Part shown: positions 50,099 through 53,460 of the stretch, piece by piece | Numbering within the stretch: position 1 is the stretch's first letter | Layout of the letters: each line of letters opens with the position of its first letter | IMG/VR virus record: IMGVR_UViG_3300020192_000010 | Coordinates: 30,892 to 94,891 of that record | Direction: 5' to 3' (one strand) | Source of the DNA: a virus | Length of the DNA: 64,000 nt | Made by a program: the position numbers and the translations under genes | Notes under the pieces: generated by a model | The model's database searches: none | Seen by the model: only the letters and a program-made list of their open reading frames with translations | Told to the model about the DNA's origin: nothing

Positions 50099-51192
50099 GA
50101 CGCGGCTCCTTGACTAGCTGTGAGTCTTTCTCGAATAAACTTTATCGCACTACCTAACTCTTCCGGAGTGTTATTAGCGATGTTGTTAGCCTTTAAAAAT
50201 GAATTAAAACTATCAATTGTTTGAAGGTCGTTAAGCGTAAGCTTTGCGTATCCAGCGAGAGGCCCGCGCGCTTCATCATCATCCAGATTAAGTGACAACG
50301 GCATCTTGCCGTTATTAGTAATAACAGTCTTCTCTACGTCGTTCAAAGGCTTACGAACAGATCCTAGCAATGGTTTGTCTTGACTGATGTAGCTAGCCCA
50401 TGATGGATTTTCCATAACGCGTTGATTGAACTTTGCAACCATTTCTGTCATAGCTTTAATATTAGCAGATAATTGCTGGGCCAACTTTGCTTTGTTTGGC
50501 AACGTTGAAAGTTTATCGTCATCTTGCGGAATTTTTGCACGAAAATCAGCTATGAATTTTTTTATAAATCCAGGAGATTCTTCTCCTGCGCCCATATCTA
50601 ATGCAAACGATCCGATCATTGACATAAATTCAGAAATTGCTTTAATAGCATTATTCGTACGCGGGCCCCATATACCGTCTGCTTTATATTCGCCATTTCT
50701 ATGCGAACCAATAATCTGAAGCGTCTCTACAAGATTACGCATGCTCTTGATTTCGTTTTGATTCAAAGAGGACTGTCGCTCCTTTGTGCTCAACCCATCA
50801 GTCTTCACATAAGCTTTCGAACCGGCATCATTCGTATAATGATCGAATATAAAACTGTTAACTGCATCGTGCCCGCCAAGATAACCAGCAGTATTAGATT
50901 GTTGCGTGCCGGTGCCGGTGGGCTTGCTTTTGAATGCATCGGTACCGGCTGCTACTTGTCCGAAATTAAGAATAGACTTTTGCATTTCTGCAACAGCTGC
51001 GAAATCGGCGGGAGCAACATGCTCTTTAACTCGCGTACCTGTACCGTTGGTTTCATTATTTGGTACAGCTGGTCCCACAGTCGGTTTACCTTTATTCGTA
51101 TTCGATATCCCAGTCTGAGCTTTGCCTCCTGGCGCAATCTCCGCTGTAGGATCTGCTGCCGTATCTTTAGCACGTTCATCTAATTTTTTCAT
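50095..51192 (-). CDS. Head-region protein with peptidoglycan-binding-like motif
   Basis: ADGIWGPRTNNAI matches the PG_binding_1 D-G-x-x-G-x-x-T motif. Confidence 0.6.
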   Translation of the reverse strand: MKKLDERAKDTAADPTAEIAPGGKAQTGISNTNKGKPTVGPAVPNNETNGTGTRVKEHVAPADFAAVAEMQKSILNFGQVAAGTDAFKSKPTGTGTQQSNTAGYLGGHDAVNSFIFDHYTNDAGSKAYVKTDGLSTKERQSSLNQNEIKSMRNLVETLQIIGSHRNGEYKADGIWGPRTNNAIKAISEFMSMIGSFALDMGAGEESPGFIKKFIADFRAKIPQDDDKLSTLPNKAKLAQQLSANIKAMTEMVAKFNQRVMENPSWASYISQDKPLLGSVRKPLNDVEKTVITNNGKMPLSLNLDDDEARGPLAGYAKLTLNDLQTIDSFNSFLKANNIANNTPEELGSAIKFIRERLTASQGAAS

Positions 51193-52559
51193 TGAGATTT
51201 TCCAAGCGCCTTGAGCACAGAATTGTACACAGCGTCTGCATATGTAATTAATTCCGTCGTGCTATTGAAAGATGATTTGCCACGGAAAATGTTCAGGTTT
51301 TTACACTTTTCAGATAACTGATCTTTAGAGATAGATACTTCTTTAATACTCTCTAGAGATTTATACAGTTCTGAAAAACCTTTGAAAGCCGATTCAGCAC
51401 GATCAAATGCCATATCAAAAATGTTTATTTTTGCCGTATCGTTATCTGGAATAGGCTCATAGATTTTGTCTTCTTGATCAAGAAGAGTCTTGAACTTATT
51501 CATGCTGGTCGCAACAACGTTCTTAAATTCTTGAACCGTTCCATCCAAAACTGTATTTCCAGATACAGGCTTCTCTTCCTTTTTTGGATCAACAATCTTC
51601 TGATTCTCTTGCCACTTACCAGGGTTCTTGAACGATACCTTGTCCTTGTCATCAACTGGTGGAATCCAGTTCTGACCTTTCTCGATGCTCCAAGAAATGC
51701 TCTCTAGGTCCTTATAAATTCCTTGAAGCATTCCGATTGCTACGAGTGAAGTATCATCATCTTTGAAAACCTGACTATCAAATGTACCGCTCTGCTTTGA
51801 GGTCTTGAAGTACTCTTGGAATTTACGCAATGCATTAAGGAACTTTGGAATCGTTTCCGTTTTGCTTTGAAGCGCTTCTCTTTTGATGATATCCAGAGAA
51901 GGCATAAATGTATCGGTTATCTGTCTTGTCAAACTCTGAACACCAGCCTCTTCAGCGATACCTTTTTTACTGAATACTTGAATCAGCTGGCTGAAACGAT
52001 CTTTAATACTGTCGATGATGCTTGCGTATGCGGTACCCGCTTCTGCGGATGGCGCCGCTTCACTTACTAAAAAACTTGTACCAGACCCAATCAAAGCAAG
52101 CTTTACTTGGTTGATAACATCGTTCTTAATAGCCGCACTCTTAGTTGCTACCTCTACAGACTTCTTGTGCTCTGCAATAAGATCTTCAACTACACCGTGG
52201 CCCCCTTGAGATTCTGCGACCTCAGGGCTTCCTTCAGGGTGAGCGAACTCTAGAAGATCTTCTCCGGTTTCATCGTGTACGTTGTACAGATGTACTTCGG
52301 CCTGCTTAAGTTGAACGATGCGATCTTCAACCTTCTCCGCATAAGCAGCAAAGCCTTTGGAACGTAGCCCGGCGCAAAGCTTGAAAAGGTTTTCTTGAAC
52401 GTTGTCAGATGGCTCAAGGTTGACTTCTGGCTTGGCTTCAGCTGCGCTTTTCATAACCTTAGTTATGTGTGAAGCTTCCTTGAAAATTCCTTTTTGGAAA
52501 GCATCCTTGACGAGATTGCTCATCGTCTCACTGTGTTCAAATTTATTTTTAGACGTCAT
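51189..52559 (-). CDS. Putative inner-head protein
   Basis: Multiple KxA motifs. AHPEG...GVVEDLIAEHKKSVEVA is shared with the scaffold. Confidence 0.6.
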   Translation of the reverse strand: MTSKNKFEHSETMSNLVKDAFQKGIFKEASHITKVMKSAAEAKPEVNLEPSDNVQENLFKLCAGLRSKGFAAYAEKVEDRIVQLKQAEVHLYNVHDETGEDLLEFAHPEGSPEVAESQGGHGVVEDLIAEHKKSVEVATKSAAIKNDVINQVKLALIGSGTSFLVSEAAPSAEAGTAYASIIDSIKDRFSQLIQVFSKKGIAEEAGVQSLTRQITDTFMPSLDIIKREALQSKTETIPKFLNALRKFQEYFKTSKQSGTFDSQVFKDDDTSLVAIGMLQGIYKDLESISWSIEKGQNWIPPVDDKDKVSFKNPGKWQENQKIVDPKKEEKPVSGNTVLDGTVQEFKNVVATSMNKFKTLLDQEDKIYEPIPDNDTAKINIFDMAFDRAESAFKGFSELYKSLESIKEVSISKDQLSEKCKNLNIFRGKSSFNSTTELITYADAVYNSVLKALGKSQ

Positions 52560-52635
52560 GCGCTAGCTCCAATGGGCAAAACCTAAAGGTATACCCTAAA
52601 TATAGTATAATACACTACTTGGCTCGTGTTTTATA

Positions 52636-52772
52636 TTCCAGGGTTCCATTCTTCTGTGAACTACCTCGCCCTAAAGGGCGAGGCTTCTGAAAGTATCCGG
52701 CGAATTTATTTCGCCGGATATCGCAAGGCTCGTCCCGAGCCTTCTAACATTTATTGCCGCATTAATATCTCT
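52636..52772 (-). ncRNA. Putative orphan omega-RNA with ~20-nt guide AGAAGAAUGGAACCCUGGAA
   Basis: In TnpB systems the scaffold overlaps the tnpB 3' end and the guide is the flank just past the right end (here after TTCAC at 52656). Expression is inferred, not shown. Confidence 0.55.
52656..52772 (-). mobile_element. IS200/IS605-family right-end remnant: last codons of tnpB plus omega-RNA scaffold, no full tnpB
   Basis: Minus strand from 52772 reads RDINAAINVRRLGTSLA...RSLAL* (TnpB RuvC-III motif RDxNAAxN). Three perfect stems at 52725-52743, 52694-52720 and 52664-52683. Ends GAAGCCTCGCCCTTTAGGGCGAGGTAGTTCAC. Confidence 0.85.
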
Positions 52773-53460
52773 AAAGCCACAAAAATTGCAACGTGCCGAA
52801 AGTAGGGCTAGGAGGCGCAATACAAATAGCCACTGCCGGATGCTTATCGGTGGGCTGACGAGATGTTAAAAGGCCAACTTCGCTTACGAAAAGGTTACAA
52901 TTAAGCGGGTAAGTTTGATTCGTTTCATAGATATCGGTCTCGGCAATGAACCGCTGAAACCATATTGTTACACGACCAGAACCGGCTGTCGAGTCGTCGC
53001 CGATAACATTTGGTATTTGATATCTATAAGATACGAAAGTTCTTATAGAGTCTGGCGTTCCGGAGCTTGTACTGTCATAATTAAGTTCCGTACCGGCTGG
53101 GAACGTTATTACACCATTACGTGTGTTCAACGTAACTGTTACTGTCGAAGTAAATGATCCTGGTATTACGTTTGGATTATCCAAATCCGCCCTAATATCA
53201 GCGGTCGATACATATTTGTTCGCTGAGTTAAGTATACCATCAGCCGGTACAATACGTGTTTCATTCCAAGCCGAAGCTGTAAAAGCTCTGGTTTTGAAAT
53301 CATCTATGATACCGATTGGAATTAATCCGTCACTAACTCCACATACAATCTGGTTACCAGAGGTAGTTAGCTGTGCACATTGTCCCGGTTCGAACTCAGA
53401 CGAAGGGTCGACAATGAAGCTAAATGGGATTGAATTGCCCGTCTGTATAATTCTAAGCAT
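52771..53460 (-). CDS. Decoration-protein paralogue
   Basis: MLRIIQTG and STAGSGRVTIW match ALKLLQPG and TAAGSGKITLW of 45248..45913. Confidence 0.6.
   Translation of the reverse strand: MLRIIQTGNSIPFSFIVDPSSEFEPGQCAQLTTSGNQIVCGVSDGLIPIGIIDDFKTRAFTASAWNETRIVPADGILNSANKYVSTADIRADLDNPNVIPGSFTSTVTVTLNTRNGVITFPAGTELNYDSTSSGTPDSIRTFVSYRYQIPNVIGDDSTAGSGRVTIWFQRFIAETDIYETNQTYPLNCNLFVSEVGLLTSRQPTDKHPAVAICIAPPSPTFGTLQFLWL

What the first reader, a model, noticed from the sequence alone, without database searches (positions are those of the whole stretch)
52636..52772. Orphan TnpB omega-RNA (guide RNA cassette without nuclease) inside the phage head operon
Seen: overlapping the stop codon of gene 52771..53460, another frame reads RDINAAINVRRLGTSLA..., followed by three mismatch-free hairpins (8, 11 and 8 bp) and the end GAAGCCTCGCCCTTTAGGGCGAGGTAGTTCAC. 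Known: RDxNAAxN is the RuvC-III motif at the TnpB C-terminus; the IS200/IS605 omega-RNA overlaps these final codons and takes its guide from the sequence just past the element end. Seen: the rest of tnpB, tnpA and the left end are absent, so the retained ~117 nt roughly matches the RNA scaffold. It is co-oriented with the late operon and has no obvious terminator upstream. Inference: the phage may keep a stand-alone guide RNA (guide about AGAAGAAUGGAACCCUGGAA) that loads in trans onto a TnpB or TldR-like protein encoded elsewhere by phage or host, to target a competitor or host gene or act as a decoy. I found no full target in this window.
Basis: partly seen in the sequence, partly recalled or inferred. 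Interest (0 to 1): 0.85.

Follow-up and report, generated by a model that had tools for sequence, protein, structure and literature searches.

The report
Leftover TnpB guide-RNA stub in megaphage
A 118-base leftover of a TnpB "jumping gene", the part that encodes the nuclease's guide RNA, sits between two head-region genes of a giant phage; it is real and structurally intact, but it is a recent, variable remnant of a known kind and nothing shows that the phage keeps it for use.

Summary
Window 52656-52773 (minus strand) is a 118-nt block: the last 34 codons of a tnpB gene plus 18 nt, ending at a transposon right end. It folds into three perfect hairpins.

It is the omega-RNA scaffold and right end of a TnpB-only IS200/IS605 (IS1341-type) element. 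A covariance model built from relatives scores it at 78.8 bits. 20 of 22 base pairs covary, and the 3' geometry matches the solved ISDra2 omega-RNA.

It is not isolated:
- The same 95-kb phage record (about 22% of the genome) holds two more copies outside the window. One runs off the contig end with an intact tnpB start.
- A second virus contig holds nine copies: one near full-length but broken, one cut by the contig end, and shorter MITE-like or truncated forms.
- In metagenomes the element's depth is 9-85 times that of the phage flanks.

Near-identical phage contigs in two freshwater metagenomes lack the block. They carry 14 nt there instead, ending in TTATC, the family's target motif. The polymorphic 156 nt includes the supposed guide.

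No TAM-flanked target was found, and no RNA data exist.

Verdict: a recent, left-end-less remnant of an active IS swarm. Stand-alone omega-RNAs are already described, and this scan has noted similar ones in other phages. Trans use remains possible but is unshown.

The parts
52656..52773 (-). 118-nt block: the last 34 codons of tnpB (from RDINAA..., RuvC-III motif) plus 18 nt, up to the transposon right-end boundary (...TTCAC). This is the omega-RNA scaffold region.
   Evidence: It is 116/118 identical to G000:C1:7553-7670, where it follows a 112-aa TnpB C-terminal ORF. It is 99% identical to a copy in a second virus contig. Covariance model R1 scores it 78.8 bits, E 7e-16.
52725..52743 (-). 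Hairpin 1 (8 bp, GGA loop). It overlaps the codons for RLGTSL. In most relatives the loop is GAA-like.
   Evidence: (helix 1: 5 of 6 pairs with compensatory changes).
52694..52720 (-). Hairpin 2 (11 bp). Its length and sequence vary among relatives.
   Evidence: helix 2: 6 of 7 base pairs with compensatory changes.
52658..52687 (-). Hairpin 3 with a UUUA tetraloop at -20..-17. It is closed by GAA (-32..-30) and UUC (-5..-3). It also looks like the subterminal right-end hairpin: the left end has a near-identical hairpin.
   Evidence: (helix 3: 9 of 9 pairs covary). There is a weak Rfam hit to sot0042 (RF02656), 14.3 bits, at 52663-52685.
52671..52673 (-). Former tnpB stop codon (TAG), in the loop of hairpin 3.
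   Evidence: ORF 52671-52820(-). Full-length relatives end ...FRSLAL* at the same place.
52636..52655 (-). The 20 nt just past the right end. This would be the guide segment if an omega-RNA were made.
   Evidence: Position follows from the right-end boundary. No match with 3 or fewer mismatches elsewhere in either virus contig. No hit in IMG/VR. Four bacterial MAG hits lack a TTAT flank.
52614..52769 (-). 156-nt segment absent from the alternative ('empty') allele, which has 14 nt in its place. It comprises 114 nt of the element plus 42 nt of right flank (52614-52655).
   Evidence: read laying joint 52613/52770 in runs X4 and X8. Each joint lies on a contig with 0-1 differences in the flanks (tables 5, 5c, 8).
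52771..53460 (-). Upstream 229-aa gene (no family match). Its C-terminus is native. Its TAG stop plus the next A (52770) coincide with TAGA inside tnpB, giving 4 nt of microhomology at the left junction.
   Evidence: Homologues in L022 (230 aa) and G002/L190 (229 aa) end in the same ...L(M/L)LL* tail. Junction.
51189..52559 (-). Downstream 456-aa gene of the same strand. Its 54-nt upstream region (52560-52613) is the same in both alleles.

Best explanation
The block is an immobile, left-end-less 3' fragment of a TnpB-only IS200/IS605-family (IS1341-type) insertion sequence. It holds the complete omega-RNA scaffold and the right end.

The family is an active swarm in this megaphage lineage. Forms seen are a copy with an intact tnpB start cut by a contig end, a broken near-full-length copy, in-frame mini-tnpB copies, about 175-nt MITE/PATE-like copies, and randomly truncated stubs.

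Inferred history of this copy:
1. An element inserted, in the operon's orientation, 3' of a TTATC target in the short spacer just after the 229-aa gene.
2. A deletion between TAGA at the gene's stop and TAGA inside tnpB then removed the target, the left end and about 90% of tnpB.

The event is recent, because otherwise identical phages lack the block. The perfect stems therefore reflect youth, not selection.

The stub is probably transcribed passively with the late operon. It could be bound by a TnpB made from sibling copies, but no benefit to the phage is shown. The most likely status is a neutral remnant.

Shown: its identity, structure, boundaries, sibling copies, and the polymorphism.
Inferred: the order of events, transcription, and neutrality.
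For: Identity:
- The block is 116/118 identical to a copy attached to a TnpB C-terminal ORF (PF07282, 88-89 bits) in the same record.
- An intact 390-aa TnpB (P0001) and locus L110 are 92-95% identical and carry the same 3' end.
- P0001 aligns with ISDra2 TnpB over residues 3-372, E 5e-46.

Structure:
- 19 relatives each fold into the same three hairpins with different stem sequences.
- RNAalifold gives 22 pairs, 14 of them compensatory.
- The covariance model finds the 3' ends of non-seed tnpB genes.
- 94% of cells are paired, against 69% in shuffles and 52% or less when slid; 20 of 22 pairs covary.
- UUUA at -20..-17, GAA at -32..-30 and UUC at -5..-3 match the ISDra2 omega-RNA described in PMC10097598.

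Swarm:
- 3 copies in G000 and 9 in G001, with differing deletion junctions.
- TTATC lies immediately 5' of the left end in nearly all copies (variant TTATT in one).
- Element depth is 9-85x that of the phage flanks, with many other flanks and junctions in metagenome contigs.

Random truncation:
- One stub keeps only hairpin 3 (G001:70325-70353).
- A junction at 52728 lacks hairpin 1.

Recency:
- The empty allele in X4 and X8 has 0-1 flank differences.
- Its 14-nt filler ends in TTATC exactly at the right junction.
- TAGA microhomology lies at the left junction.
Against: - The scaffold is complete with respect to the conserved core and has no stem mismatch, whereas the sibling in the same record has one.
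- It lies in the sense orientation inside a late operon with no terminator-like site upstream, so an RNA containing it is probably made.
- A compatible TnpB is probably encoded in the unsequenced 78% of the genome.
- Stand-alone omega-RNAs are reported to work in trans (PMC10691335).
- The 42 nt between the right end and the point where the empty allele resumes are not explained by a simple insertion plus one deletion.
- The left junction was not bridged by a listed contig in runs X3 and X6.
Confidence: 0.75

Rival explanations
1. Functional stand-alone guide RNA. The stub is transcribed with the late operon and processed and loaded in trans by a TnpB from a sibling element or the host. It directs cleavage of TTATC-flanked sites matching 52655-52636. 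One such site would be the uninterrupted ancestral allele of this locus in co-infecting phages (homing or exclusion); another would be some other competitor or host site.
For: - The conserved scaffold core is complete and all stems are perfect.
- It is in the sense orientation, with no terminator-like site upstream.
- Sibling copies exist in the same record, one with an intact tnpB start at the contig end.
- Catalytically intact TnpBs that are 92-95% identical exist.
- Stand-alone omega-RNAs and PATE-borne omega-RNAs acting in trans are described (PMC10691335; PMC10055086).
- If the 42-nt flank is native (model A), the empty allele in X4/X8 lacks exactly that target, as an escape allele would.
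Against: - Near-identical phages lack the block, so there is no sign of retention.
- Truncated stubs of the family also occur with broken scaffolds, as expected from random decay.
- There is no match to the guide in either virus contig or in IMG/VR.
- The four exact 20-mers in bacterial MAGs have no TTAT 5' flank and no extended similarity, and about one hit is expected by chance.
- No intact tnpB has been verified in this phage's 95 kb.
- The known empty allele does not contain the guide's target, so this RNA cannot home into it.
Confidence: 0.15
2. Exapted cis-acting RNA element. The three stable hairpins between two late genes act on the polycistronic mRNA, for example as a 3' exonuclease barrier or a processing site that sets the expression ratio of the 229-aa and 456-aa genes, as REP or MITE hairpins do in bacterial operons.
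For: It lies in an intergenic position in the sense orientation and has very stable stems (z = -6.4). The insertion leaves the downstream gene's 54-nt leader untouched.
Against: Phages without it are otherwise identical. The same sequence occurs at many unrelated loci. The structure is explained by its origin as an omega-RNA and right end. There are no expression data.
Confidence: 0.05
3. Assembly artefact. The left junction (52773/52774) is a chimeric join made through the repeat, and the real locus holds a longer element or none.
For: The element is a high-copy repeat. In runs X3 and X6 no listed contig bridges 52774-52886, and contigs break inside the element.
Against: - Only 4 nt are shared at the junction, far too few for a de Bruijn graph to join through.
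- Runs X1 and X2 hold 97-98% of the sampled 31-mers of 52200-53400.
- Contigs in X3 and X6 run from the unique right flank through the 42 nt into the element (records 1 and 16).
Confidence: 0.03

Closest known systems
Stand-alone omega-RNAs of OMEGA systems (Altae-Tran et al. 2021, as summarised in PMC10691335)
   Same: An omega-RNA scaffold and transposon right end without an adjacent effector or transposase gene, in a genome that also holds related effector-bearing copies. [quoted passage not shown]
   Different: Those are described as 'evidently mobilized'. This copy has no left end, so it cannot be mobilised by TnpA. It lies in a megaphage late operon, is polymorphic among near-identical genomes, and neither its expression nor its activity has been tested.
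PATEs / MITE-like protein-less IS200/IS605 derivatives (Dyall-Smith 2011; Geobacillus elements in Meers et al. 2023, PMC10055086)
   Same: Internal-deletion derivatives that keep the omega-RNA-encoding right part and would need TnpB in trans. Sibling copies in G000 and G001 (about 175-400 nt, with both ends) fit this description exactly.
   Different: The copy in the finding lacks the left end and the TTATC target. It is a truncated stub, not a PATE.
ISDra2 TnpB-omega-RNA (Deinococcus radiodurans; PDB 8H1J, 8EXA; PMC10097598)
   Same: The family's TnpB aligns over its whole length (E 5e-46). The functional ISDra2 scaffold is 116 nt, against the 118-nt block here. Both have a UUUA tetraloop at -20..-17, GAA at -32..-30, UUC at -5..-3 and a 5-nt T-rich TAM.
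   Different: Sequence identity is low. The TAM is TTATC rather than TTGAT. The conserved core here is three simple hairpins of about 90 nt. A pseudoknot partner (the GAA-like loop of hairpin 1) is only inferred. ISDra2 carries tnpA, and no Y1 tnpA was found in these phage contigs.
sotRNAs: sense-overlapping transcripts at the 3' end of IS1341-type tnpB genes in Halobacterium (Rfam RF02656)
   Same: An RNA overlapping the tnpB 3' end. The only Rfam model that touches hairpin 3.
   Different: The hit scores 14.3 bits against a gathering score of 88 and covers only the last 23 model positions. It is not a member.

Membership tests
TnpB omega-RNA scaffold / right end of an IS200/IS605 (IS1341-type) element | Overlaps the last codons of tnpB (RuvC-III D-x-D-x-N-A-A motif onward) and runs to the transposon right end | tested here: met
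   The block equals the 3' end of copies attached to tnpB. PF07282 scores 12.4 bits on the stub and 89 bits on the sibling.
TnpB omega-RNA scaffold / right end of an IS200/IS605 (IS1341-type) element | Secondary structure conserved with compensatory changes across related tnpB loci | tested here: met
   20 of 22 pairs covary and 94% of cells are paired, against 69% in shuffles. Caveat: alignment A4 was fitted to the model.
TnpB omega-RNA scaffold / right end of an IS200/IS605 (IS1341-type) element | Sharp element boundary, with the guide taken from the flanking DNA, different at each copy | tested here: met
   Nine right-end flanks diverge immediately after TTCAC; L110 does the same.
TnpB omega-RNA scaffold / right end of an IS200/IS605 (IS1341-type) element | A discrete RNA is made and bound by TnpB | not testable with these tools
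   No RNA run is listed for this DNA.
TnpB omega-RNA scaffold / right end of an IS200/IS605 (IS1341-type) element | A cognate, catalytically intact TnpB in the same genome | tested here: inconclusive
   In the 95 kb held (22% of the genome) there are only a 112-aa fragment, this stub, and a left end plus the first 7 codons running off the contig. Intact relatives are P0001 and L110 (D191, E275 and D359 invariant).
IS200/IS605 family (Y1 TnpA-mobilised) | Similar subterminal hairpins at both ends, insertion 3' of a fixed penta-nucleotide, no inverted terminal repeats, no target duplication | tested here: met
   This applies to the family, not to this copy. The left-end and right-end hairpins share the same shape and the same TTTA loop. 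TTATC lies 5' of nearly all left ends (TTATT in one). The flanks are not duplicated.
IS200/IS605 family (Y1 TnpA-mobilised) | A Y1 (HUH) TnpA available | tested here: not met
   No PF01797 match in G000, G001 or the 92%-complete relative G002. A TnpA would have to come from the host or from unsequenced DNA.
PATE / MITE-like non-autonomous IS200/IS605 element | Both the left end and the right end retained, so that TnpA can move it | tested here: not met
   There is no left-end sequence anywhere in the window. The block starts at codon R-D of tnpB, directly after the neighbouring gene's stop. Sibling copies do meet this feature.
TldR-type guide (nuclease-dead TnpB repressor system) | A nuclease-dead TnpB homologue encoded nearby, with the guide matching a promoter | tested here: not met
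   No other PF07282 or TnpB match in G000, and no target was found.
Any curated Rfam family | Score at or above the family's gathering threshold | tested here: not met
   The best overlapping hits are RT-12 (16.8 of 44.2 bits) and sot0042 (14.3 of 88 bits).

The most novel reading that the evidence does not exclude
The megaphage lineage hosts a TnpB/omega-RNA swarm that works as an RNA-guided homing and exclusion system between co-infecting phages. In that system even left-end-less stubs such as this one persist, because their RNA, loaded in trans on the phage's own TnpB, cuts rival genomes that carry the uninterrupted TTATC-plus-target allele. The 42-nt-deleted allele seen in two freshwater metagenomes would then be an escape variant.
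Probability: 0.1. Interest if true: 0.7.

Novelty: new member of a known kind. Interest (0 to 1): 0.3.

Why it matters
On its own the stub is ordinary. Effector-less omega-RNA loci and decaying IS200/IS605 copies are both described, and this scan has already met similar stubs in other phages.

The setting is what makes it worth keeping:
- A giant phage carries tens of copies of a TnpB element in every stage of reduction.
- No TnpA is in sight.
- Natural occupied and empty alleles occur in otherwise identical genomes.
- The intergenic slot holds a GIY-YIG homing endonuclease gene in one relative and a different extra ORF in others.

That combination would make a convenient natural system for asking whether TnpB elements spread between phages by RNA-guided homing, as homing endonucleases do.

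Tried and rejected
- Rfam at a permissive E-value: nothing near a gathering score.
- MAFFT plus RNAalifold on 19 distant sequences (A2) failed, because the variable hairpins were misaligned. It was replaced by per-sequence folds, a closer subset and a covariance model.
- Guide search:
  - No hit with 3 or fewer mismatches in G000 or G001 apart from the locus itself.
  - No exact 28-mer or 20-mer in IMG/VR.
  - Four exact 20-mers in bacterial MAGs. Three are one orthologous gene start, none has a TTAT flank, and none shows extended similarity. I judged these to be chance.
- Origin of the 42-nt flank: no similar sequence in any fetched DNA.
- Other alleles in IMG/VR: the gene-end 22-mer was not found. 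Homologues of the 229-aa gene at 54-60% identity carry other genes downstream, so they do not show the ancestral spacer.
Relatives were fetched with the search for related loci instead.
- Expression: no RNA holder was listed for this DNA, so nothing can be said either way.
- Holes in contig cover at 52774-52886 (X3) and 52774-53010 (X6) were not interpreted.
- An apparent 9-nt similarity between the sequence upstream of the block and the left end (E 0.8) was rejected as chance, because homologues show the 229-aa gene's C-terminus is native.
- A TldR-like partner was considered. None exists in the 95 kb held.

Full report
**1. What is there**

All genes in this part of the window lie on the minus strand. 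Read on that strand, the TAG stop of the 229-aa gene (52771-53460) is the first three bases of a 118-nt block, 52773 down to 52656.

- In another frame the block encodes RDINAAINVRRLGTSLAISGEINSPDTFRSLAL-stop.
- It folds into three mismatch-free hairpins of 8, 11 and 8-9 bp and ends in ...GTAGTTCAC.
- The fold of 52600-52800 is 6.4 standard deviations more stable than dinucleotide shuffles.
- No terminator-like site lies in 52300-53000.
- The neighbours include a prohead-protease-like 1151-aa protein, so "head region, late operon" is reasonable.

**2. What the block is**

The window is bases 30892-94891 of a 94,891-bp IMG/VR virus record. CheckV puts the record at 22% complete, which implies a phage of roughly 430 kb.

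- The same record holds a second copy of the block outside the window, at G000:C1:7553-7670. It is 116/118 identical and begins and ends at the same bases.
- There it is preceded by a 112-aa ORF that matches the TnpB TNB/zinc-ribbon domain (PF07282, 88-89 bits).
- Full-length relatives exist. P0001 (390 aa) is 92% identical to that fragment. A gene on a 122-kb metagenome contig (L110) is 95% identical to P0001 and has the same 3' end.
- P0001 has the three Pfam domains of TnpB.
- The RuvC D, E and D residues are invariant in an alignment of 15 family members.
- P0001 aligns with the solved ISDra2 TnpB over residues 3-372, E 5e-46.

The block is therefore the last 34 codons of a tnpB gene plus the 18 nt that follow, up to the transposon's right end.

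**3. Is it the omega-RNA scaffold?**

I took the 3' ends of tnpB relatives (35-95% protein identity) from viral and metagenome contigs.

- Nineteen of them, folded one by one, each give the same three hairpins at equivalent places with different stem sequences. All share a conserved AGAAG linker and a TTCAC terminus.
- On eight closer relatives RNAalifold predicts 22 pairs, 14 with compensatory changes.
- A covariance model built from those eight scores the window's block at 78.8 bits (E 7e-16). It is the only hit in the 64-kb window.
- The same model finds the 3' ends of about twenty tnpB genes that were not in the seed.
- On the resulting alignment 94% of cells pair, against 69% in shuffles and at most 52% when partners are slid. 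20 of 22 pairs show double changes. The caveat is that this alignment is fitted to the model.

The geometry of the last 32 nt matches the ISDra2 omega-RNA solved by cryo-EM:

| Feature | Position here | ISDra2 (PMC10097598) |
|---|---|---|
| UUUA tetraloop | -20..-17 | same |
| GAA | -32..-30 | same |
| UUC | -5..-3 | same |
| Scaffold length | 118-nt block | 116 nt functional |

- In ISDra2 the UUC pairs with a GAA in an upstream loop to form a pseudoknot. Here hairpin 1 has a GAA-like loop in most relatives (GGA in this copy). That pairing is my inference; it was not tested.
- Hairpin 3 closely resembles the hairpin at the element's left end. It probably doubles as the single-strand DNA hairpin that a Y1 transposase would recognise. 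This is an inference from IS608 biology.
- No Rfam family reaches its threshold. The only model touching hairpin 3 is sot0042, the archaeal IS1341-type overlapping transcript, at 14.3 of 88 bits.

**4. It belongs to a swarm**

A second virus contig (G001, 100,668 bp, 24% complete) shares no DNA with G000 except this element. It holds nine copies or pieces:

- one copy cut by the contig end, with residues 1-187 intact;
- one near-full-length copy whose residues 155-213 are inverted and 214-244 missing;
- one with 30 nt of left end joined to the last 168 nt;
- three MITE-like copies of about 175 nt (left end, ATG, then the last 86 nt) that share one deletion junction and so must have transposed after the deletion;
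- one with its two ends in inverted order;
- one left-end-only piece;
- one stub that keeps only hairpin 3.

G000 holds three copies:

- this block;
- the 396-nt mini-element upstream of the tubulin-like gene, with an in-frame deletion joining MRRSY to TWGNF;
- a left end plus the first seven tnpB codons that run off the contig start.

Nearly every left end is directly preceded by TTATC (one copy has TTATT), and L110 shows the same. Right-end flanks differ at every copy, and there is no target duplication. These are the hallmarks of IS200/IS605 elements, here of the tnpB-only (IS1341) type.

No Y1 transposase gene was found in G000 or G001. None was found in G002 either, a 394-kb, 92%-complete relative that carries five tnpB genes.

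**5. The block is a recent polymorphism**

Nineteen DNA metagenome runs (microbial mat, freshwater and other aquatic samples) hold at least part of the stretch, eight of them half or more of its words. None is RNA. I laid contigs of four runs on 52200-53400.

- In two microbial-mat runs (X3, X6), contigs run from the unique right flank through 52614-52655 into the element. This is the occupied allele.
- In two freshwater runs (X4, X8), one contig each covers 52200-52613 and 52770-53400 with 0-1 differences. It skips the 156 nt between and has 14 nt there instead.
- On the gene strand this empty allele reads: stop codon TAG, A, then TCCGGACAATTATC, then the sequence from 52613 on.

Three points follow.

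- First, otherwise identical phages lack the block. It is therefore young, and its perfect stems say nothing about selection.
- Second, the 14-nt filler ends in TTATC exactly at the right junction. By chance this would happen about once in a thousand. The locus history therefore involves a canonical insertion after that motif, in the orientation observed.
- Third, the left junction has 4 nt of microhomology: TAGA at the gene end and TAGA inside tnpB. This fits a later deletion that removed the target, the left end and most of tnpB.

The C-terminus of the 229-aa gene is native. Homologues in two other viral contigs and in G002 end in the same leucine-rich tail.

The 42 nt between the right end and 52613 remain unexplained. 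Either they are native and the X4/X8 allele lost the element plus those 42 nt (model A), or they came in with the element from a former site (model B). I found no other copy of them.

The element part of the stretch is 9-85 times deeper than the phage flanks in all four runs. Many other flanks are attached, along with further deletion junctions. One of those junctions joins the first 12 nt beginning with the TTATC motif to the last 52 nt. Another, at 52728, lacks hairpin 1. Truncation points therefore look scattered, not tuned to keep the scaffold.

**6. The proposed guide**

The 20 nt past the right end (52655-52636) have no match with three or fewer mismatches elsewhere in G000 or G001. They have no exact match in IMG/VR.

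Four exact matches occur in bacterial MAGs:

- Three are the same gene start in Deltaproteobacteria/Thermodesulfobacteriota MAGs and one is in a Bacteroidetes MAG.
- None has a TTAT motif 5' of the match.
- None continues to match beyond the 20 nt.

About one such hit is expected by chance in 596 Gb. The empty allele that exists in nature does not contain the target, so an RNA from this stub could not drive homing into it.

**7. Reading**

The best-supported explanation is a neutral, immobile remnant of an active IS swarm (confidence 0.75).

- The conserved core is complete.
- The stub is probably transcribed with the operon.
- A compatible TnpB is probably encoded in the unsequenced part of the genome.
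- Stand-alone omega-RNAs and PATE-borne omega-RNAs are reported or argued to work in trans (PMC10691335; PMC10055086).

Nothing here shows retention, a target or an RNA, so I give it 0.15. A cis role on the operon mRNA gets 0.05 and an assembly artefact 0.03.

**8. Comparison and novelty**

The stub works like, and derives from, an omega-RNA locus. It fails the PATE definition because it has no left end. It cannot be called a functional stand-alone omega-RNA without expression or activity data.

It is a new member of a known kind. Earlier notes of this scan describe the sibling mini-element in the same genome (e1-6004550, which my searches confirm). They also describe comparable orphan scaffolds in other phages.

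The more interesting result is the setting: a megaphage with tens of TnpB-derived elements, natural occupied and empty alleles, and a slot that holds a GIY-YIG endonuclease gene in one relative and a different extra ORF in others.

**9. Limits**

- Only 22% of the genome is available.
- Contigs, not reads, were laid, and only four runs.
- No RNA data exist.

Noticed in passing
L190:52-1422 (G002:C1, downstream of the 229-aa homologue) and L022:3696-4448: The slot just after the conserved 229-aa gene is occupied by a different extra gene in each relative. G002 has a 456-aa GIY-YIG endonuclease with several HTH repeats (PF01541, 46 bits). L022 and L023 have a 250-aa Cys-rich ORF with an HNH-like D-H...N motif and no Pfam hit. 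Together with the TnpB stub here, this suggests a hot spot for homing-type elements.
   Followed up: partly
G000:C1:7553-7948 (L002:1501-1896), outside the window: A 396-nt mini-element with both ends and an in-frame tnpB deletion (MRRSY joined to TWGNF). It sits after TTAT, 20 nt before the ATG of a tubulin-like gene, so its would-be guide covers that gene's ribosome-binding site and start codon.
   Followed up: partly
G001:C1:13833-15005 (L015:1501-2673): A near-full-length tnpB copy in which the segment for residues 155-213 (including the RuvC-I GIDLG motif) lies inverted on the other strand and residues 214-244 are missing. Either a rearranged dead copy or an assembly artefact.
   Followed up: no
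L074:2556-2651 and 2724-2819: Behind a distantly related tnpB gene, the 96-nt scaffold occurs twice in tandem, identical and 168 nt apart, each followed by a different flank. This makes a two-unit 'array' of omega-RNA scaffolds.
   Followed up: no
L116:1162-1300 (minus strand): A mini-element of about 190 nt from a different family member (58% identical TnpB). The first tnpB codons are fused to the last roughly 25 codons plus the scaffold, close to and opposite a full tnpB gene. The same style of reduction recurs across the family.
   Followed up: no
G002 (IMGVR_UViG_3300047994_000374, 394,192 bp, 92% complete): A related megaphage carries five tnpB genes with open frames of 375-445 aa and no Y1 transposase gene. 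Whatever moves these elements is not encoded by the phage, or is not a recognisable Y1 enzyme.
   Followed up: partly
window 52651-52773, metagenome runs X3, X4, X6, X8: Summed contig depth over the element is 9-85 times that of the flanking phage DNA, with many distinct flanks. One junction joins the first 12 nt starting with the TTATC motif (TTATC plus 7 nt of left end) to the last 52 nt, giving a derivative of about 64 nt.
   Followed up: partly
window 52734: The middle base of the hairpin-1 loop is polymorphic among copies: G here, T in the sibling copy and L110, A in most relatives. This is the loop proposed as the pseudoknot partner of UUC at -5..-3.
   Followed up: no
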